The translations under genes and the position numbers were made by a program. Below are positions 11-27,014 of a stretch of DNA of 64,000 nucleotides, piece after piece. Source of the DNA: Escherichia phage vB_EcoM_ESCO45; sequence record OM386661.1; one strand, given 5' to 3'. The number at the start of each line of letters is the position of its first letter. Within the stretch, counting starts at the first letter, position 1. The notes under the pieces are model-generated. The model did not search any database and was not told the origin of the DNA. It was given only the letters and a program-made list of their open reading frames with translations.

Positions 11-7958
<7,948 letters not shown>

Positions 7959-15901: not shown

Positions 15902-16342
15902 TTAGAAAGGTTTTCTACGTTGCTTGTTAATGTTAGCTTTCATAGCAGCTAAATGGTTTTGCTGTTCAATCAGTCGTGAACGTTCTTGATGACTAAGCGC
16001 CATAGTGTTCACATTCTCAATTGCTTGAGTGGCTTGCTTTAAAGCTCGACCAATCTTACCAGACATTTTGCGTTTTGCAATAGTTGCTTGATGCTTAGGT
16101 TCAACCACACGATAACCAACACCCATTGAAGCAACCAGATAAATCTTCTCTTCTTTAAGAAGCTTTTCAATAAACTTCTCAAGTCGGTTTAGACGTGTAA
16201 GTGCATAAGCCTTCATTTCATCTTCGTACTTAACAATGTCACCTTGATAAGTTGGCTTCACAATACCTAAGAAGGTGTCCATCTCGGAATGTGATACAGT
16301 GTCGCCGTAACTAAACTTTGCTGCTAATGCTTTTGTATTCAT
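15902..16342 (-). CDS. hypothetical protein (cassette gene 2)
   Basis: 146 aa ORF; followed by hairpin-T5 terminator at 15862-15892. Confidence 0.45.
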   Translation of the reverse strand: MNTKALAAKFSYGDTVSHSEMDTFLGIVKPTYQGDIVKYEDEMKAYALTRLNRLEKFIEKLLKEEKIYLVASMGVGYRVVEPKHQATIAKRKMSGKIGRALKQATQAIENVNTMALSHQERSRLIEQQNHLAAMKANINKQRRKPF

Positions 16343-16344
16343 AA

Positions 16345-17351
<1,007 letters not shown>

Positions 17352-18452
17352 TTATTCATAATCTCGTATAACGAGACCAACAGGGAACTGTAAAGAACCC
17401 TTACGAGTCATCTTCTGGAACTGAACCGTTAAAGGCTTCCCGATAAACTCTTCAGGATGCTCAGCAAGATACTGTTTCTTCTCATGAGTAGTCTTCCATG
17501 AGACATCTACAAAGACGTTAGGAAGAGTCTCTACAACGAACTTACCGTGGCCACGTTTATCGGTCTTGACACCAGTCACTTTAAACTCTTCAGTGTGCAT
17601 CTTCTTATGCTTAATCAAGAAGTATGAACGGTGACCACACTCATAGAAGGAGTCTTCAGAGATTGAACGGTACATTGCACCTTCAAACTTAGCTTCAACC
17701 CACTTATCATGGGCTTCATCAAGCTCTTCCCAAGAATTTACACGGATAGTCTGTACAGGAACAACTCTACAGGTATCTCCAAGTTCAACAATGGGTGAGT
17801 TATCAATAACTTCACGACGCTCAGGCCAAGATTTTGAATTGTCACAGATATCATACCAGTAGAATTTAAGAAGGTGACGGTCTGGATTATCAGCATTCTT
17901 AATCATAGACACAATATCTTCTAAGTCCCAACCATGAGCATAAATCTCTCCATCAAAGTCTTCAACTTGTGGATGTAATTTAAGCAACAAAAGCAAATCT
18001 GGGATTAGTTCTGCTGGAACGTTGTAAACAGTATTCTCACGAGAATAAGCTGTGAAACTGACTGAATCAGCATCTCTTGAAATTCTACAACGTACACCAT
18101 CCAGTTTTGGTTGAGCATCAGCAGGGAACTTCAGATACTTTGCATGGCTAACCTTTGCAGCATCATGAGCAAGCTGTACACCTACCTTCTCAGTATTCTG
18201 TGCAGACTCTTTTGTGTAAGCATAACCTTTACGGTCAACTTGCTTTTTATACTTAGCAGCAACTTCAAAGAGAGCTTGCTGTTCAGCATTACGCTCATTC
18301 TTTTTACCGATATTTTTAGGTTCTGCTGTATACTCTTCAAACATCATCTTGCCATTTTCTTTACCGTAGGTTGTAATAACTTTGTCACCTACAGCAGCAC
18401 ATGACCAGACGTTGAAAGAACCATCTTTATTTTGTTTGTATAGTGTTGTCAT
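17352..18452 (-). CDS. ATP-dependent DNA ligase
   Basis: 366 aa; adenylation motif I PKLDGVRCRI (KxDG) and downstream nucleotidyltransferase-like motifs. Confidence 0.8.
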   Translation of the reverse strand: MTTLYKQNKDGSFNVWSCAAVGDKVITTYGKENGKMMFEEYTAEPKNIGKKNERNAEQQALFEVAAKYKKQVDRKGYAYTKESAQNTEKVGVQLAHDAAKVSHAKYLKFPADAQPKLDGVRCRISRDADSVSFTAYSRENTVYNVPAELIPDLLLLLKLHPQVEDFDGEIYAHGWDLEDIVSMIKNADNPDRHLLKFYWYDICDNSKSWPERREVIDNSPIVELGDTCRVVPVQTIRVNSWEELDEAHDKWVEAKFEGAMYRSISEDSFYECGHRSYFLIKHKKMHTEEFKVTGVKTDKRGHGKFVVETLPNVFVDVSWKTTHEKKQYLAEHPEEFIGKPLTVQFQKMTRKGSLQFPVGLVIRDYE

Positions 18453-18655
18453 TTTCTCTTACTACCAATTTCTACGTCGATAACTTGAACATCACCAGCA
18501 ACATCAAACTTATGAATGATGCTTTCCACAGTGTAAGTCCAACCCTCAATGCGAACAAACTCACCTTCTCGTGGGACGATTGGGTTACGTTGAGCTACGG
18601 TTGTAGTGGAGTGAACAACATCATAACGATAGGTATAGTTTACTAGGACTTCCAT
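18449..18655 (-). CDS. hypothetical protein
   Basis: 68 aa ORF, coupled to ligase start. Confidence 0.3.
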   Translation of the reverse strand: MEVLVNYTYRYDVVHSTTTVAQRNPIVPREGEFVRIEGWTYTVESIIHKFDVAGDVQVIDVEIGSKRK

Positions 18656-18664
18656 CGTTTTCCC

Positions 18665-18898
18665 TTAAAAGGATAAGTCAATATTAATACGTTCGCCCTT
18701 AAGGACTCCTGTACGGTCTCTTGCAATCTTGCCGTCAACAATAAGGATATGTGCAGACCTTAAAGCGTCACCATTAAAAGTTTTTACGAACTTACTAGGC
18801 ATCACTACAATGGGCATCTCCTGAATCATCTCTTGAGTATAGCAATTGTCGTGAAGTTGCTGAATAACGTCTGCAAGTGTCATTTTTGATGTCTCCAA
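18665..18898 (-). CDS. small protein, paralog A (shared GxKIAxDxTGxLKGER motif)
   Basis: 77 aa; ...ILIVDGKIARDRTGVLKGERINIDL...; paralogous to 19086-19304 product. Confidence 0.4.
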   Translation of the reverse strand: METSKMTLADVIQQLHDNCYTQEMIQEMPIVVMPSKFVKTFNGDALRSAHILIVDGKIARDRTGVLKGERINIDLSF

Positions 18899-19089
18899 TA
18901 TTCAATATCAATAAGTTCTTGTGCAATACTTTTCAGATTACCTTTCAAGAAAACCTTCTCAGAACCTGAAAGAGATGAATTGTCAATTAACCTGTTCATT
19001 CTCTCAAACAACTTCTGTTTACGGTTCTTGATAGTCTCCTTTGAAGCACCTTTCATCATCGCTGCATGGGTTCTTCCACGGTGGCTCAT
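18880..19089 (-). CDS. hypothetical basic protein
   Basis: 69 aa Lys/Arg-rich ORF between the two paralogs. Confidence 0.3.
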   Translation of the reverse strand: MSHRGRTHAAMMKGASKETIKNRKQKLFERMNRLIDNSSLSGSEKVFLKGNLKSIAQELIDIEYWRHQK

Positions 19090-19304
19090 AGCAAATTCTC
19101 GATGCCTACACGTTCACCTTTTAAGTACCCTGTCTTGTCTTTTGCAATTTTGCCTCCAGCAATAAAGATATCTACTCTACGCAGAAATTCAGGACTTACC
19201 TTCAAATTTCTGGAACCACTGCAAAGAACAATAAACATCCCTTCAATCTCTTTTTGAGAATAACCAGCACATTGCAACTGAACTTCAATCTCTGAAAGTG
19301 TCAT
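19086..19304 (-). CDS. small protein, paralog B (shared GxKIAxDxTGxLKGER motif)
   Basis: 72 aa; ...IFIAGGKIAKDKTGYLKGERVGIENL... Confidence 0.4.
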   Translation of the reverse strand: MTLSEIEVQLQCAGYSQKEIEGMFIVLCSGSRNLKVSPEFLRRVDIFIAGGKIAKDKTGYLKGERVGIENLL

Positions 19305-19355
19305 AAGTCCTCCTATACAAGATATAGTATAAGGTACTCTTCCCTGAGCACCTTG

Positions 19356-19859
19356 TCAACTTAGTTTTGCAAACTCTCCGTGGAGTTTAATAGCAGCTTC
19401 ACAGTAAGCTTTATGGGCTTCTTCAGGTGTGTCAAATAAACCAAGTGATGTCCTTTTACCTCTGCATGTTATAGCTGCCCTCCACTTATTGCAGTCTTTA
19501 AAGTAATATACACCCTTGTAACCTGATTTGTTAGTCGTCTGCTTTACTCTGTTTTGAGCGTTTCCATATTTATCGGCCTCTCTAAGATTAGAAATGTGGT
19601 TATTACTCCTATTACCATCAATGTGGTCTATCATCTTAGTAGGTTTGTAACCATGCTCAAACCACCAAACAAGGTGATGTACTTTTATTACAACACCTTT
19701 GAATTTAAGTACCCTGTAACCATAAGCATCACTTCCTCCGGCAACCTGACCAGCTTTAGCTTGCCTATTCCTGTCATACTTGTTGTAGAAGACCCCTTTG
19801 TCGGGGTCGTAAATAAAATTATCCTTGTAATCTTGAAGTGTTAGTGTACGGCGTACCAT
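19356..19859 (-). CDS. HNH homing endonuclease with AP2-type DNA-binding domain
   Basis: 167 aa; HHLVWWFEHGYKP...IDHIDGNRSNNHISNLR (HNH) followed by YKGVYY...WRAAI...LGLFDTPEEAHKAY (AP2-like). Confidence 0.8.
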   Translation of the reverse strand: MVRRTLTLQDYKDNFIYDPDKGVFYNKYDRNRQAKAGQVAGGSDAYGYRVLKFKGVVIKVHHLVWWFEHGYKPTKMIDHIDGNRSNNHISNLREADKYGNAQNRVKQTTNKSGYKGVYYFKDCNKWRAAITCRGKRTSLGLFDTPEEAHKAYCEAAIKLHGEFAKLS

Positions 19860-22540
19860 GTCTTACCTACCTTACCAGTGCCTGTAACAAGCGTCTTACT
19901 CTTTAATCCAAGATTTTTTGATGCTTGACCATACATTCTATCAATAATCTCCTTAACATCTGGTACATCTTTTGTTGGAACCTCTAAAGAAACTTCGTCG
20001 TGGTAACTACAGACCCATCTAGCACCAATAGCTGGTTTCCTACCATTTAGGACTGTAAGTTTTCGCTCTGTTAACTCTCTGTTAGCCAAGTTAATACCCT
20101 CATTCTGCACCTGCGCCTCACTGCCCATAAGTGTGTAATTCAATAACTTATGTGGAGATTTACACCATAACCACGCTCCAGCAACTTTGATATAACCACC
20201 TTTGGCAATTGCAGAAGTTTTTCCAAAAACCTCTTCAAGTGCTTTCTTAGTTGCTTTGAAGTCCTCCTCTAGTCTATCGAGCAGCTTTTTAATCTTAGGT
20301 AGACGCACAAAGTAAGTTTGTTTAGTCAATGCACCTTCTTCCGTAGATGATGCCTTGATAGTTTTCGCGAACTTCTCATCTCCGGCTCCAAATAACAGGG
20401 CGTAGATGCCATTTTTGCTCTTCTTACGGCCTTTTGTAATCTCGTGAAGAAGTTCCTCATCCTGTGTCTCCCTACAACGAACAATATCTTCTTCTTTGTT
20501 CAGACCAAAGTAAATACTGTTCAGTGTATGTGCATCAGTCCCTGTGTAGACTTCATAGAGGTCATTTTCAGCATCATAACGCAGATACTTGTCAGTTTCT
20601 GGGTTAAGATACTTGTCAAGATGCTTACAGTAGTATCTACCATCATCTTGCTTAGTGAACTCTACTGACTCTTTACCCTCAGTTACCGCTTTAGTGAAGT
20701 CTTCATCACCCATAAAGTTACAAAGAAGAACTAGCTGGGCTGAGTTTTGGTCTACGGAGATGATATCTGTACCATCTTCACAAGTCCACACCTCCCTCAT
20801 AGGTGCTCCATAAACAGCAGCACCAGACGGTACGTTTACAATACCATATTGTGTCATACGTCCAGTTGAAGTACCAAACACCATTGCACCAGCACTAAGG
20901 CGACCATCTGGACGAATCTGGTTCAACCAACCTTTTTCATCATCCTTTGAGTTCTCAATAGTTCTGCGTCGGTGCATCAAAGTATAGTATTTAGCAATCT
21001 TCTGTCCAAGTTCACCTTCAATCGTATCATAAGATGATTCAGTAAGTTTTGGTGAAGTACGGATTAAGCAAGGCTCAAGCAAATCTGTGTATTTCTTCAC
21101 AGACCAGTTATGCTCAATGTACTGGACACCTTCATGTTCAACATAACTCAAACCACACTGCTCAACCATTTCCTGCCACTTAGGATGTTTTGTAATCATC
21201 TTTTTATTGTCTTTGAAACGACAAACTTTGACAGGGCGACCGTCTGAGTCTTTCTTGTAGTTCCAGTCATCTGGAATCCAACCAACTGATTTCAAGTAGT
21301 CTTTAACAACTGCTACCTGAGTCATACGAGAAACTTCAAACTCAATTGGTGTATACGGTGCATCAATCAAACCTGTGTAGCGACTTGACTCAAGTTCAAA
21401 GTGGTTAACAACGTGGCTGTTATAATACTTCACAGTTTTGACTGTTTTTACTGGCTTCCAGTCTTTGCACTTCTTACCAATCTTTGCATTCAACTCGTTG
21501 CAAATTGCACGAGCATCCTTCATTGCTACAAAACCTTCCTTGTACTCTTCACCAGTTACAGAGTTGGTTGGTGTATAGCAATTCCTTTTTTCAATGTTAA
21601 AAATCTTTGTAGTTGGCTTACCAAATGGTTTGATTTCGTATGTCTGCACCTCACCATTACGTACCTGCTGACGATACTTTGTCTTAGGGTACTTGGTAAT
21701 TCTTTTCAGTCCATCTGCATGACCAAATGTTTCAACATACTCATTCCAAGCTTTTGCAAACTCTTCTCCAGTGACTTTACCTTTGGTCTTAATAGTTGGA
21801 GGAAGATGTGGTTCAACTTCTGAAGCAAGCTCATTAGTCAACTTGTCAAGTTCCTTTACATGGAACTCCATAAGCTCTTTATCAGCTTTCCAGCCATTGA
21901 TAGCTTGTTGACTCATCCAGAAAGATGTTTCTTTAGCTCGCATGTAGGTTTCATAAGTGTCTATGCCACACTTCTTAAGCTTGAGATACTCGTTATCAAG
22001 TGCCCGTTTAGTTTTGGCGTTAATACGGATATCATCTACAACACGAGTGAAGATTTCTGCATTCCACACACCCCAATGCTCAATCTCTGGCTTACGAACA
22101 CCAACACGAGCACCCCATGCAGCCAAACCATGAGCACCTTTATAACCCTTTGGAGTTGGCCTATCCATCCACTGAACACGAGACTGGATAAGAGAATCCT
22201 GAAAGAAATTACTCCACGGCTTACATTTTGGATTATCAAAGTTCCATAAATCAGGTGCAATGTGATTGAAAACCCACCAGTCATAACCGAGACCATTATG
22301 GATGCAAAGACGTTTCGCCTTTAACGCAAACTCAACACCTTCACGTAAACCACCTTTAAGGTACTTAGTGTACTTGTGACCGAGGATAGGCTCATCTGTA
22401 AAGACCCATACAGGTGGCTCTTCATCGTCAGATTTATAGTCTGCGAAAGCCATTACGTGCACTTTAGTGAACTCAAGGAGCAAACCATCAGTTTCTGTAT
22501 CGCCAACTAAATGTAAGTTTTTAAAATCTACGTTTTCCAT
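19841..22540 (-). CDS. DNA polymerase, family A, with 3'-5' exonuclease domain
   Basis: Exo I motif VGDTETDG near N-terminus; C-terminal motif C YHDE and ...GKTWYAVH terminus; start set at Met11 (22540) which has RBS GAGGGAG; longest ORF starts 22570. Confidence 0.85.
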   Translation of the reverse strand: MENVDFKNLHLVGDTETDGLLLEFTKVHVMAFADYKSDDEEPPVWVFTDEPILGHKYTKYLKGGLREGVEFALKAKRLCIHNGLGYDWWVFNHIAPDLWNFDNPKCKPWSNFFQDSLIQSRVQWMDRPTPKGYKGAHGLAAWGARVGVRKPEIEHWGVWNAEIFTRVVDDIRINAKTKRALDNEYLKLKKCGIDTYETYMRAKETSFWMSQQAINGWKADKELMEFHVKELDKLTNELASEVEPHLPPTIKTKGKVTGEEFAKAWNEYVETFGHADGLKRITKYPKTKYRQQVRNGEVQTYEIKPFGKPTTKIFNIEKRNCYTPTNSVTGEEYKEGFVAMKDARAICNELNAKIGKKCKDWKPVKTVKTVKYYNSHVVNHFELESSRYTGLIDAPYTPIEFEVSRMTQVAVVKDYLKSVGWIPDDWNYKKDSDGRPVKVCRFKDNKKMITKHPKWQEMVEQCGLSYVEHEGVQYIEHNWSVKKYTDLLEPCLIRTSPKLTESSYDTIEGELGQKIAKYYTLMHRRRTIENSKDDEKGWLNQIRPDGRLSAGAMVFGTSTGRMTQYGIVNVPSGAAVYGAPMREVWTCEDGTDIISVDQNSAQLVLLCNFMGDEDFTKAVTEGKESVEFTKQDDGRYYCKHLDKYLNPETDKYLRYDAENDLYEVYTGTDAHTLNSIYFGLNKEEDIVRCRETQDEELLHEITKGRKKSKNGIYALLFGAGDEKFAKTIKASSTEEGALTKQTYFVRLPKIKKLLDRLEEDFKATKKALEEVFGKTSAIAKGGYIKVAGAWLWCKSPHKLLNYTLMGSEAQVQNEGINLANRELTERKLTVLNGRKPAIGARWVCSYHDEVSLEVPTKDVPDVKEIIDRMYGQASKNLGLKSKTLVTGTGKVGKTWYAVH

Positions 22541-22600
22541 TTTTACTCCCTCTACAATCATTAACCTCATACATTACTGCAAAAAATTATAAAAAGCAAG

Positions 22601-24835: not shown

Positions 24836-25036
24836 ATGAAGATGAGAGTAAAAGACAATTTTAAAGTGATTGACCACCGTTTAGTGGAACTCTCATCTCT
24901 TTCCAATGAGGTAATGATTGAACGTCTTAAGAGAGTTGAATCACGAAGGAAAGAGATTGCAGATGAAATTCATGAACTGGACAAGATTGAAAATGGACTG
25001 AAGGTAGAACTACAACGAAGAGGTGCTAATGTCTAA
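24836..25036 (+). CDS. hypothetical small coiled-coil protein
   Basis: 66 aa ORF. Confidence 0.3.
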   Translation: MKMRVKDNFKVIDHRLVELSSLSNEVMIERLKRVESRRKEIADEIHELDKIENGLKVELQRRGANV

Positions 25037-27014
25037 AGGTCGTAAATTGAAAGAGGCTGGTCAGTTTATTGGTCATTGTGCATGTCCACGTTGTGGTTCA
25101 TCAGATGCTGGTTCAATCTATCATCATGATGATGATTCTTATTCGATGACTTGCTTTAGTTGTAACAAAGGTTTCCCAGAGTGGGATTTTGATAAAGGAC
25201 AAATCGTGAGCGCTTATTCTACTGGTTCAGACAATAAAAACCGTACTTTCCGTGGGATGGATTTAGACGATGTGAAAGAAAACCTTGAAGCAATGGACTT
25301 AAAGGACAGGAAGATTCCTGCAAAAGTCCTTGAACGCTTAGGTATCAAGGTTGACATTGACAGTGACGGTGAAATTGATGCGCACTTCTATCCGACTTAC
25401 AAACGTAATGAAGATGGCAAGCTAGAGCATGTTGGCTACCGTGTTCGTCACCGTTACCCAGAAGACCATCCAAAAGAGCACCTACGTGGTAAGTTAAAAG
25501 ACTTTTCAGGTGGTGTTGGAGACATTAAAGGTGAACTGGCAATGTTCGGTTCATGGATTGCTCCAGAAGGCGGTAACCGTCTATTCATCTGGGAAGGTGA
25601 GATGGAATGTGCGACAGCAATCTATATGACTTCTTTGGCGATTAAAGATAAGTCTCGTCGTAAGAATTACTGTCACGTATCTGTTCCATCAGGTGCAAAC
25701 ATTAAGTCTATCAAAGACAACTACCAGTACATCACATCATTTGATGAGATTTACTTGTGCTTTGATAACGATGAAGCAGGTGCTAAAGCCACTAAAGAGG
25801 CTGCTGGTATCCTACCCATTGAGAAGGTTCGTTTATTCCAGTATCCAGAAGGTGTAAAAGACCTTAACGAGTGGTGGACAAAGTTCTATAAAGAGAAAGA
25901 TACAGTTCTGGAAGGATTTAAGCAGCGTATCTACAATGCACCTCGTTACTGCCCTGCTGGTATCAAGAACTTCGCAGATGGTTTTGAGGCAATGAAGAAT
26001 CGTGGTCAGATTCCATTGATTCCTTTCCCAGAATCTTTCGGAGATTTGAACAGGCTGACTTATGGCGGTTATGGTTTAGGTGAGATTACAACTCTGGCAG
26101 CACCATCTTCAGTGGGTAAATCTGCATACACTCGTGAAATGATTTATACTGCTTGGAAAGATACCGATTACAACATTGGTGTAATTCCTGTAGAAGATAC
26201 CTATGAAGAGTTGATGGAGATGCTCTGTGCAATCCACCTGAGCAAGCAGATTTCTGAGATTCCTTATGACGAACGTGATTGGGATGAATTGAAGGAGGCA
26301 CACGCAGAACTGTCTAAAGGTCGTCGTATCCACATCGTTGACCATCAAGGGGCAATTGACCAAGATAACTTGCTGGAATTTGTTGACTATCTTGTTAACA
26401 GTTTAGACTGTAAGATTATTATTCTTGACCCTATTACGTTGGCTCTGTCACGTTCAGATACGGATGAAGAGGAAGTTTTGTCTGAGCTATTGCGTCGTTG
26501 CAAACGCTACCAGTATGCACAGGTAAACGTCTGTCACGTTCGTAAGAGTGCAGGTGGTCAGAAGGCTAACTCTGAAGGTGGAGATATCTCTGAAGAGGAT
26601 ATTAAAGGCTCTGGTGCGTATTTCCAGATTTCTATGAACAACATTCTGTTAATGCGTAACAAGGTTGACCCAGACCCTGTTAAGAAAAACTTGACAAAAA
26701 TCAAGTTAACTAAATGTCGTCGTCACGGTAAGTCAACGGGTATTGCTGGTCATACTTGGTACAATCCAGATACAGGGCGTCTTATCAAAGCATCTGGTTG
26801 CGGAGTTGACATTGACGGTGCAGCAGAAAATATTCGCCAACAGTTTGGCATTGGTGAAGCTGAAGACCATTACGATGACTCTTTGCCACATTATGAGGAT
26901 GAAGTGTTTGACCGTGATACTGGTGAAGTCTATACTGAAGAGCAGCGTCAAAGCTCAACGATTCCACCTGTATTAAGTGAGGATGCAGATGACTGCCCGT
27001 TCGAAACTGAGTGA
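25029..27014 (+). CDS. bifunctional DNA primase-helicase (T7 gp4-like)
   Basis: N-terminal Zn finger CACPRCG...CFSCNKG, TOPRIM-like FDNDEAGAKA, helicase Walker A APSSVGKSAYT and Walker B IIILDP; ATG 25029 preferred over GTG 25023. Confidence 0.8.
   Translation: MSKGRKLKEAGQFIGHCACPRCGSSDAGSIYHHDDDSYSMTCFSCNKGFPEWDFDKGQIVSAYSTGSDNKNRTFRGMDLDDVKENLEAMDLKDRKIPAKVLERLGIKVDIDSDGEIDAHFYPTYKRNEDGKLEHVGYRVRHRYPEDHPKEHLRGKLKDFSGGVGDIKGELAMFGSWIAPEGGNRLFIWEGEMECATAIYMTSLAIKDKSRRKNYCHVSVPSGANIKSIKDNYQYITSFDEIYLCFDNDEAGAKATKEAAGILPIEKVRLFQYPEGVKDLNEWWTKFYKEKDTVLEGFKQRIYNAPRYCPAGIKNFADGFEAMKNRGQIPLIPFPESFGDLNRLTYGGYGLGEITTLAAPSSVGKSAYTREMIYTAWKDTDYNIGVIPVEDTYEELMEMLCAIHLSKQISEIPYDERDWDELKEAHAELSKGRRIHIVDHQGAIDQDNLLEFVDYLVNSLDCKIIILDPITLALSRSDTDEEEVLSELLRRCKRYQYAQVNVCHVRKSAGGQKANSEGGDISEEDIKGSGAYFQISMNNILLMRNKVDPDPVKKNLTKIKLTKCRRHGKSTGIAGHTWYNPDTGRLIKASGCGVDIDGAAENIRQQFGIGEAEDHYDDSLPHYEDEVFDRDTGEVYTEEQRQSSTIPPVLSEDADDCPFETE

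What the first reader, a model, noticed from the sequence alone, without database searches (positions are those of the whole stretch)
18665..19304. Pair of small paralogous proteins with a conserved GxKIAxDxTGxLKGER motif between ligase and HNH endonuclease genes
The products of 19086-19304 (72 aa) and 18665-18898 (77 aa) share ...(A/V)(G/D)GKIA(K/R)D(K/R)TG(Y/V)LKGER(V/I).I(E/D)... and similar length, separated by a small basic ORF. Duplicated small proteins in a replication/recombination neighbourhood with no obvious family assignment are good candidates for an uncharacterised accessory function such as a polymerase or nuclease cofactor or an anti-defence factor.
Basis: seen in the sequence. 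Interest (0 to 1): 0.45.

Follow-up and report, generated by a model that had tools for sequence, protein, structure and literature searches.

The report
Two copies of an uncharacterised phage protein
Two intact but diverged copies of a small protein found almost only in Felix O1-like phages sit between the DNA polymerase and DNA ligase genes. The family is real, conserved and transcribed, but it is already catalogued as "unknown function" and nothing here reveals what it does.

Summary
The window is a Felix O1-like phage, probably vB_EcoM_ESCO45. They are 41% identical (E 5e-16), and both match PHROG 4230 ("unknown function") over their full length.

An exhaustive profile search of 1.84 billion protein representatives found only 13 clusters, all small proteins apart from one doubtful hit. 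So these are not fragments of a larger gene.

Of 251 phage records, about 186 carry B only, about 31 carry A only (Mooglevirus) and about 34 carry both. A and B are interchangeable cassette variants that occupy the same slot. The A-basic-B layout is consistent with recombination through shared flanks, though the direction of change is unresolved.

Each type occurs alone in many phages, and Erwinia Ounavirinae have neither. This argues against an obligate heterodimer or an essential replisome cofactor. Function is unknown. My low-confidence guess is a host-directed binding protein that uses the invariant KD(K/R)TGxLKGE loop. This is an ordinary uncharacterised phage accessory family.

The parts
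19086..19304 (-). Paralog A, 72 aa, the 'A-type' member of PHROG 4230. It is the first gene after the conserved intergenic element.
   Evidence: ORF. PHROG 4230 match E 3.6e-35. 100% identical to ESCO45_00051. AlphaFold pLDDT 89.8. dN/dS about 0.11. Present or absent as a clean cassette relative to Felix O1.
18665..18883 (-). Paralog B, 72 aa from ATG 18883, the 'B-type' member of PHROG 4230 and the orthologue of Felix O1 ORF93.
   Evidence: ORF, start revised. PHROG 4230 match E 1.7e-40. 100% identical to ESCO45_00049. AlphaFold pLDDT 92.0 with the same secondary structure as A. dN/dS about 0.15. Felix O1 ORF93 is transcribed, with peak signal at 25 min (PMC3185647 Table 3).
18880..19089 (-). 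Basic 69-aa ORF (PHROG 5180, unknown function) between A and B. It overlaps both neighbours by ATGA and is shared by A-carrying and B-carrying lineages, so it is a likely crossover anchor.
   Evidence: pI 10.3. Present in the layouts basic-B, A-basic-X and A-basic-B, but absent from many B-only phages.
19305..19355 (-). Conserved 51-nt intergenic element with a strong GGAGG ribosome-binding site. It contains TTGACA-N22-TATACT. It is the upstream anchor of the cassette slot.
   Evidence: Sequence. It is 90-100% identical in phages that carry different cassettes on either side. The sigma-70 scan does not call it a promoter because the spacer is 22 nt.
18449..18655 (-). Context: a 68-aa ORF (PHROG 4427, unknown function) whose end overlaps the ligase start by ATGA.
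   Evidence: Detected in all Felix, Moogle and Susp-like loci examined.
19356..19859 (-). Context: an HNH/AP2-type homing endonuclease that overlaps the 3' end of Pol.
   Evidence: PF13392 HNH_3; a weak AP2 hit on the homologue. Its presence and type vary between relatives.
17352..18452 (-). Context: the ATP-dependent DNA ligase, the downstream boundary of the variable small-gene region.

Best explanation
WHAT IT IS (shown, confidence about 0.95). These are two intact, purifying-selected copies of one small phage-specific protein family, PHROG 4230. The family has a compact N-terminal helical hairpin followed by a three-stranded beta unit that ends in an invariant loop, K-D-(K/R)-T-G-x-L-K-G-E. 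It is restricted to Felix O1-, Moogle- and Susp-like Ounavirinae, a few uncultured relatives, and probably phiEco32 gp100.

HOW THE PAIR AROSE (inferred, about 0.6). A-type and B-type are alternative variants of the same slot, the first gene after a conserved intergenic element downstream of Pol or HNH. A Moogle-like layout (A-basic-X) and a Felix-like layout (basic-B) recombined through the shared intergenic element and the basic ORF, producing A-basic-B.

HOW IT WORKS (inferred, about 0.3). Each copy acts alone as a small stoichiometric binding protein made in the same transcription period as the replication genes. It docks through the invariant, positively charged loop onto a conserved target in the enterobacterial host, most plausibly a nucleic-acid-handling or defence protein. 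The variable N-terminal and middle surfaces set the specificity. On this view, a phage carrying both types covers two target variants.
For: Real genes: full-length 41% identity, E 5e-16. PHROG 4230 matches at E 1e-35 to 1e-40. dN/dS is 0.11 for A and 0.15 for B across relatives. ATGA overlaps with neighbouring genes and a GGAGG ribosome-binding site. Felix O1 ORF93 is transcribed with Pol and ligase at 25 min. AlphaFold models are confident and share the same secondary structure, pLDDT 89.8 and 92.0.

Not fragments: only 13 representative clusters were found among 1.84 billion. Intact members are 66-85 aa and shorter ones look truncated or frameshifted; one 1484-aa repeat protein is a doubtful match. 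There is no similarity to the phage's own primase-helicase or to any other ORF in the window.

Cassette origin: gene A is a clean presence/absence difference relative to Felix O1, with 98-100% identical flanks. It is 84-94% identical to the Mooglevirus Sf13 gene in 50-nt bins. Four layouts are seen: B, basic-B, A-basic-X and A-basic-B. Of 251 records, about 186 have B only, about 31 have A only and about 34 have both.

Each works alone: single-type genomes are the majority.

Host-directed rather than replisome-specific: the family is absent from Erwinia phage phiEa104 even though its ligase is 63% identical and it has an orthologous Pol. A probable remote relative in the unrelated E. coli podophage phiEco32 lies in a cluster of small genes, not next to that phage's Pol or ligase (Foldseek probability 0.91 and TM 0.57; in-genome HMM E 0.0086; P0158 against gp100 E 1e-4; gene map).
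Against: No experiment or homology links the family to any function or partner. Position is conserved: even relatives with only 41-43% identical ligase keep the order Pol, x, member, ligase. Co-transcription with Pol and ligase fits a replication or repair role equally well. Within each type the protein is highly conserved (81-97%), unlike many arms-race proteins. The phiEco32 link is weak. Direction of change is not settled: A-basic-B could be ancestral, with later losses. The models are monomers only, and complexes could not be predicted.
Confidence: 0.35

Rival explanations
1. Replication or repair accessory factor. The protein binds the phage DNA polymerase, ligase, primase-helicase or DNA itself, for example through the basic loop and the N-terminal helical hairpin, and improves replication or nick sealing. 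The two copies are redundant or specialised isoforms.
For: It always lies between Pol and ligase, including in distant relatives. It is linked by ATGA overlaps to its neighbours, in a gene run that ends with the ligase. Felix O1 ORF93 peaks with ORF88 (ligase) and ORF96 (Pol). It is present in all 251 Felix, Moogle and Susp-like records that matched. The loop carries four or five K/R residues.
Against: It is absent from Erwinia phage phiEa104 (Kolesnikvirus), which has orthologous Pol, ligase and helicase. The A/B type does not co-vary with the Pol C-terminus type or the ligase. The net charge is about neutral (pI 7.8 and 6.0). The probable phiEco32 relative is not beside that phage's replication genes. 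There is no match to any known DNA-binding or clamp-like family.
Confidence: 0.25
2. Small regulator of phage gene expression. It would act as a transcription or translation factor on the middle operon it heads, or on host RNA polymerase, with the N-terminal helix-turn-helix-like hairpin as the nucleic-acid- or polymerase-binding part.
For: It is the first gene after a highly conserved intergenic element carrying promoter-like hexamers. According to the Felix O1 genome paper, the phage encodes no RNA polymerase or known sigma-modifying factor, and how its timing is controlled is unknown (PMC3185647). There are very weak PHROG hits of family members to 'transcriptional regulator/repressor' families (E 0.1-0.3).
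Confidence: 0.1
3. Passenger of homing-endonuclease traffic. The genes persist and shuffle mainly because they lie in the co-conversion tract of the adjacent HNH endonuclease, with little function of their own. Alternatively they are decaying remnants of a larger gene such as a DnaB/RecA-type ATPase.
Confidence: 0.04

Closest known systems
PHROG 4230 (unknown function), e.g. Felix O1 ORF93 / NP_944952.2, JH2 gp60 and gp62, Moogle gp37, ESCO45_00049 and ESCO45_00051
   Same: Full-length HMM matches for both copies. The window proteins are 100% identical to the ESCO45 proteins. They occupy the same genomic slot between Pol and ligase.
   Different: Nothing differs; the window genes are members. 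The family has no described function. I found no description of its split into A and B types, or of their co-occurrence in about 34 genomes, in the papers I searched.
phiEco32 gp100 (phi32_100, 73 aa; BFVD B0FIR2) and the related EP335 protein
   Same: Similar predicted fold (Foldseek probability 0.91, TM 0.57). The alignment is collinear, with a TLS..V N-terminus and a hhIIDGhhhK(D/S)R(T/H)G strand-loop.
   Different: Only about 20-30% identical, with borderline statistics. It lacks the LKGE part of the loop and ends right after the G. It sits in a podophage, in a different genomic context. Its function is also unknown.
Small accessory proteins interspersed among T7 replication genes (gp1.2, gp5.5, gp5.7, gp5.9). 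This is an analogy from general knowledge and was not tested here.
   Same: Proteins of under 100 aa encoded between the polymerase, ligase and nuclease genes, expressed with them, and dispensable for the core replisome. The T7 examples act by binding host proteins (dGTPase, H-NS, sigma-S, RecBCD).
   Different: No sequence or structural similarity was detected to any solved structure. The target here is unknown.
C-terminal strand-loop of RecA-fold or DnaB-family helicases (hhhhKxRxGxxG)

Membership tests
PHROG 4230 (phage protein family of unknown function) | Significant full-length match to the family HMM | tested here: met
   A: E 3.6e-35, residues 1-72 on profile 1-72. B: E 1.7e-40, residues 1-70 on profile 1-70. 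Distant members P0151-P0158 also match.
PHROG 4230 (phage protein family of unknown function) | Small stand-alone protein (about 66-85 aa) carrying the conserved D-(K/R)-T-G-x-L-x-G loop | tested here: met
   Alignments. Invariant residues are L10, I25, I46, D56, T58, G59, L61 and G63.
DnaB/RecA-fold helicase (fragment or derivative) | Sequence match to DnaB_C, RecA, KaiC or AAA_25 profiles, or to the phage's own primase-helicase | tested here: not met
   No Pfam hit at E up to 1. hhalign against the window helicase (25023-27014) gives probability 0.1%. HMM scan of all window ORFs finds only A and B.
DnaB/RecA-fold helicase (fragment or derivative) | Significant structural superposition on the RecA core | tested here: not met
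HAD / P-type ATPase phosphorylation motif (DKTG) | DKTGT motif within a HAD-type Rossmann domain | tested here: not met
SAP / HeH / Rho_N helix-extended-helix DNA-binding motifs | Profile match of the N-terminal 25 residues | tested here: not met
   No Pfam family at E up to 1. The only PDB sequence hit is a de novo designed helical protein at E 0.26. The resemblance is by eye only.
Known anti-phage defence components (PADLOC) and NCBIfam named families | HMM match | tested here: not met
   No family for A. For B only sub-threshold noise.
Known anti-defence proteins (anti-CRISPR, anti-restriction, anti-CBASS and others) | Homology to a characterised inhibitor, or experimental inhibition | not testable with these tools
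   No anti-defence library is available. PDB sequence and fold searches, which include many solved inhibitors, gave nothing significant.

The most novel reading that the evidence does not exclude
PHROG 4230 could be a previously unrecognised small-protein fold that acts as a host-directed inhibitor in enterobacteria, for example of a DNA-metabolism enzyme or an anti-phage defence protein. It would bind through the invariant KD(K/R)TGxLKGE loop. A-type and B-type would be two specificity variants that some phages stack to widen their reach, and phiEco32 gp100 would be a distant member.
Probability: 0.2. Interest if true: 0.55.

Novelty: new member of a known kind. Interest (0 to 1): 0.25.

Why it matters
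Felix O1-like phages are used for Salmonella typing, biocontrol and therapy, and most of their small genes have no known function. This family is present in every Felix, Moogle and Susp-like genome that matched (251 records). It is under clear selection and has no structural relative in the PDB, so it is a clean, tractable target for deletion and pull-down experiments. The A-only, B-only and A+B phages provide a ready-made comparison for any host-range or defence-evasion phenotype. As it stands, though, it is one of thousands of uncharacterised phage accessory families. Nothing found here points to an unusual mechanism.

Tried and rejected
1. Fragment-of-a-larger-gene idea. Rejected on the exhaustive profile search, the window-wide HMM scan and hhalign against the phage helicase.
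3. Obligate partnership with the basic ORF. Rejected because many B-only phages lack the basic ORF.
4. The idea that the 75- and 83-aa genes upstream of distant members (L003, L004) are a second, cryptic paralog. hhalign probability was 0.3%. They are instead homologous by eye to phiEa104 P104_00890.
5. Link between A and the HNH gene. Rejected because A occurs both with and without HNH.
6. A-linker-B fusion for a heterodimer model.
7. AFDB50 fold search. The library was unavailable.
8. tblastn of the distant member P0153 against the phage records. No match.
9. Third protein search, using a profile that included phiEco32 gp100. 169 hits were reported, but only the top 120 were listed, and all of those were close relatives.
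10. Literature searches for functional data on this family in Felix O1-like phages. They yielded only the Felix O1 RT-PCR timing.

Full report
**Where the window comes from.** The stretch 17300-20000 is 98% identical to Escherichia phage vB_EcoM_ESCO56 and 92-95% identical to Felix O1 and its relatives. Proteins A and B are 100% identical to ESCO45_00051 and ESCO45_00049. The window is therefore a Felix O1-like myophage (Ounavirinae), probably vB_EcoM_ESCO45. All genes discussed here are on the minus strand, in this order:
- DNA polymerase A, 19841-22570
- HNH/AP2 homing endonuclease, 19356-19859
- 51-nt intergenic element
- A, 19086-19304
- basic ORF, 18880-19089
- B, 18665-18883
- 68-aa ORF, 18449-18655
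- ATP-dependent ligase, 17352-18452

**Checking the observation.** Both ORFs exist as described. ATG 18883 is the better start. It gives 72 aa and the same MTL N-terminus as A, it overlaps the stop of the basic ORF by ATGA (sequence), and it matches the 219-nt annotation in ESCO56.

A and B align without gaps over 69 residues at 41% identity, E 5e-16. Both match PHROG 4230 over their full length (E 3.6e-35 and 1.7e-40). The similarity is far beyond chance and covers the whole protein, not only the motif. An HMM built from the family finds no third copy among all ORFs of the window.

**Are they real genes?**
- Pairwise Nei-Gojobori dN/dS across relatives has a median of 0.11 for A-type and 0.15 for B-type.
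- A has a GGAGG ribosome-binding site. The pairs A/basic, basic/B and 68-aa ORF/ligase each overlap by ATGA.
- In the Felix O1 genome paper, RT-PCR shows ORF93 (the B orthologue) transcribed with peak signal at 25 min. ORF88 (ligase), ORF89, ORF90 and ORF96 (Pol) peak at the same time (PMC3185647, Table 3).
- AlphaFold2 gives confident models with the same secondary structure. A has pLDDT 89.8 and pTM 0.77; B has pLDDT 92.0 and pTM 0.78. The elements are helices 3-12 and 17-21, strand 25-28, helix 38-43 and a hairpin of strands 46-49 and 52-56, followed by the conserved loop.
- The last 5-6 residues are modelled with low confidence. They co-vary with whichever gene cassette lies downstream.

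**Are they pieces of something larger?** No. A profile search that read all 1.84 billion representative proteins found 13 clusters at E up to 1e-3. The intact members are 66-85 aa, the shorter ones look truncated or frameshifted, and one 1484-aa repeat protein matches only through a short repeated motif and is probably chance. Pfam, NCBIfam, PADLOC and PDB sequence searches give nothing.

Foldseek against predicted viral structures finds a Felix O1-like orthologue and, weakly, phiEco32 B0FIR2 (probability 0.91, TM 0.57). I matched B0FIR2 to phi32_100 by its length of 73 aa. The best in-genome HMM hit in phiEco32 is phi32_100 (E 0.0086). It aligns collinearly with the family, and with the divergent member P0158 at E 1e-4. 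It is a probable remote relative, also of unknown function, and it lies in a cluster of small genes away from that phage's Pol and ligase.

**Distribution and layouts.** tblastn with A finds the family in 251 phage records, nearly all from E. coli, Salmonella, Shigella or Citrobacter phages of the Felix, Moogle or Susp type.
- 186 records have a best match below 60% identity to A, so they carry B-type only.
- 65 records have an A-type copy.
- There are 285 matching places in the 251 records, so about 34 genomes carry both types and about 31 carry A only.

Mapping reference proteins onto 38 loci shows four layouts after Pol (with or without HNH) and the intergenic element:
- B
- basic-B (Felix O1 itself)
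- A-basic-X, where X is an unrelated protein (Mooglevirus)
- A-basic-B (this window, ESCO56 and UAB_Phi87)

Divergent members from metagenomes keep the order Pol, x, member, ligase. Erwinia phage phiEa104 (Kolesnikvirus, same subfamily) has a ligase 63% identical and an orthologous Pol. It has no detectable member in the 82 kb of its genome that I scanned.

**How the pair arose.** Relative to Felix O1, gene A is a clean presence/absence difference, lying exactly between the ribosome-binding site and the ATG of the basic ORF. The flanks are 98-100% identical. In 50-nt bins, A itself is 84-94% identical to the Mooglevirus Sf13 gene and 92-98% identical to the UAB_Phi87 gene. The upstream intergenic element stays 90-100% identical even where the neighbouring cassettes differ. 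The 3' junction TTGCTATGA is shared between A and Felix O1-type B genes.

The simplest reading is as follows. A and B are alternative variants of one slot, and recombination between an A-basic-X genome and a basic-B genome, through the shared intergenic element and basic ORF, produced A-basic-B. An ancestral duplication followed by repeated losses is not excluded. Single-copy distant relatives argue only that one copy is the older state.

**What it does.** Nothing here establishes a function. Three points constrain it.
1. Each type is sufficient alone, because most genomes have one. An obligate A-B heterodimer is therefore excluded.
2. The basic ORF is absent from many B-only phages, so it is not an obligate partner.
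3. Three observations weigh against an essential replisome cofactor and lean toward a host-directed role. The family is absent from Erwinia Ounavirinae that have the same replication enzymes. The A/B type does not co-vary with the Pol C-terminus type or the ligase. A probable relative sits in an unrelated E. coli podophage.

The invariant residues outside the hydrophobic core cluster in the loop D56-x-T58-G59-x-L61-K62-G63-E64, which is flanked by four or five K/R residues. Overall charge is about neutral (pI 7.8 and 6.0). This argues against both a DNA mimic and a classical basic DNA binder.

My best guess, at roughly 0.3, is a small stoichiometric binding protein. The conserved loop would contact a conserved enterobacterial target, and the variable N-terminal and middle surfaces, which are where A and B differ, would tune specificity. 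A replication or repair accessory role (about 0.25) is the main rival. It is favoured by the conserved position and the co-transcription with Pol and ligase.

**Comparison with what is known, and verdict.** The genes are members of PHROG 4230 and are already deposited as hypothetical proteins. By analogy only, they resemble the small accessory proteins scattered among T7 replication genes (general knowledge, not tested here). I found no mention of the A/B split or the cassette history in the papers I searched, but this is ordinary phage mosaicism. The lack of any fold match is mildly interesting.

The functional reading is reasonable but unproven, and interest is low to moderate.

Noticed in passing
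window 19356-19859 and 19841-20140 (HNH gene and the 3' end of Pol); loci L001-L038: The HNH/AP2 gene overlaps the Pol stop region by 19 nt. Across 38 related loci, the last 100 aa of Pol are 98-100% identical to the window only where the Felix O1-type HNH (95-99% identical) is present. Elsewhere they are 65-71% identical, although the ligase stays 91-99% identical. This looks like a homing endonuclease travelling with a recoded target or co-conversion tract at the end of Pol.
   Followed up: partly
window 19305-19355 (minus strand): The 51-nt intergenic element, TTGACA-N22-TATACT followed by GGAGG, is 90-100% conserved in phages that carry different cassettes on both sides. The 22-nt spacer is not canonical for sigma-70, and the promoter scan does not call it. 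A canonical TTGACA-N16-TATACT lies just downstream of the ligase at 17344-17317.
   Followed up: partly
window 18665-18685; loci L002, L014-L038: The last 4-6 residues of B-type proteins fall into classes..ILELL..IDLSF, and shorter forms such as ..IDI or ..INF. These classes track which gene follows: an ORF92-like gene, the 68-aa ORF directly, or other cassettes. Cassette junctions therefore lie inside the 3' end of the gene. A's 3' end shares TTGCTATGA with Felix O1-type B.
   Followed up: partly
window 18880-19089 and 18449-18655: Two further small conserved ORFs of unknown function. One is a basic 69-aa protein (PHROG 5180, pI 10.3), present in only some relatives. The other is a 68-aa protein, probably beta-rich judging from its sequence (PHROG 4427), found in all Felix, Moogle and Susp-like loci examined, whose end overlaps the ligase start by ATGA.
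   Followed up: partly
L002 (Felix O1) 3628-4453: Felix O1 carries three small genes in this region that the window lacks: ORF89 (72 aa, with CxC and CxxC cysteine pairs that look like a zinc ribbon), ORF91 (lipoprotein-like; its homologue in another locus hits DUF4884) and ORF92 (48 aa). The Pol-ligase interval is therefore a hotspot of cassette gain and loss.
   Followed up: no
L003 4774-5001, L004 576-827, L043 5146-5412: In distant relatives the gene just upstream of the family member is a different 75-83-aa protein. By eye it has a homologue directly after Pol in Erwinia phage phiEa104 (P104_00890), a phage that lacks the PHROG 4230 member itself.
   Followed up: partly
protein P0159 (1484 aa, from the representative library): A long repeat protein has six copies of VVLVCNGIIAQDVNGHLD that weakly match the family's strand-loop motif (E 1.9e-4). 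This is probably chance or a composition effect.
   Followed up: no
phage records GU169904.1, MG065668.1 and MG065644.1: Records labelled Staphylococcus phage SA1 and Campylobacter phages A126 and A147 contain E. coli-phage-like sequence. SA1 and A126 match this Felix O1-like region; A147 shows only a 28% ligase match of the kind seen in other large E. coli phages. These may be mislabelled or chimeric database entries.
   Followed up: no
window 15902-16947: Two ORFs downstream of the ligase, 146 aa and 200 aa, have no Pfam match.
   Followed up: no
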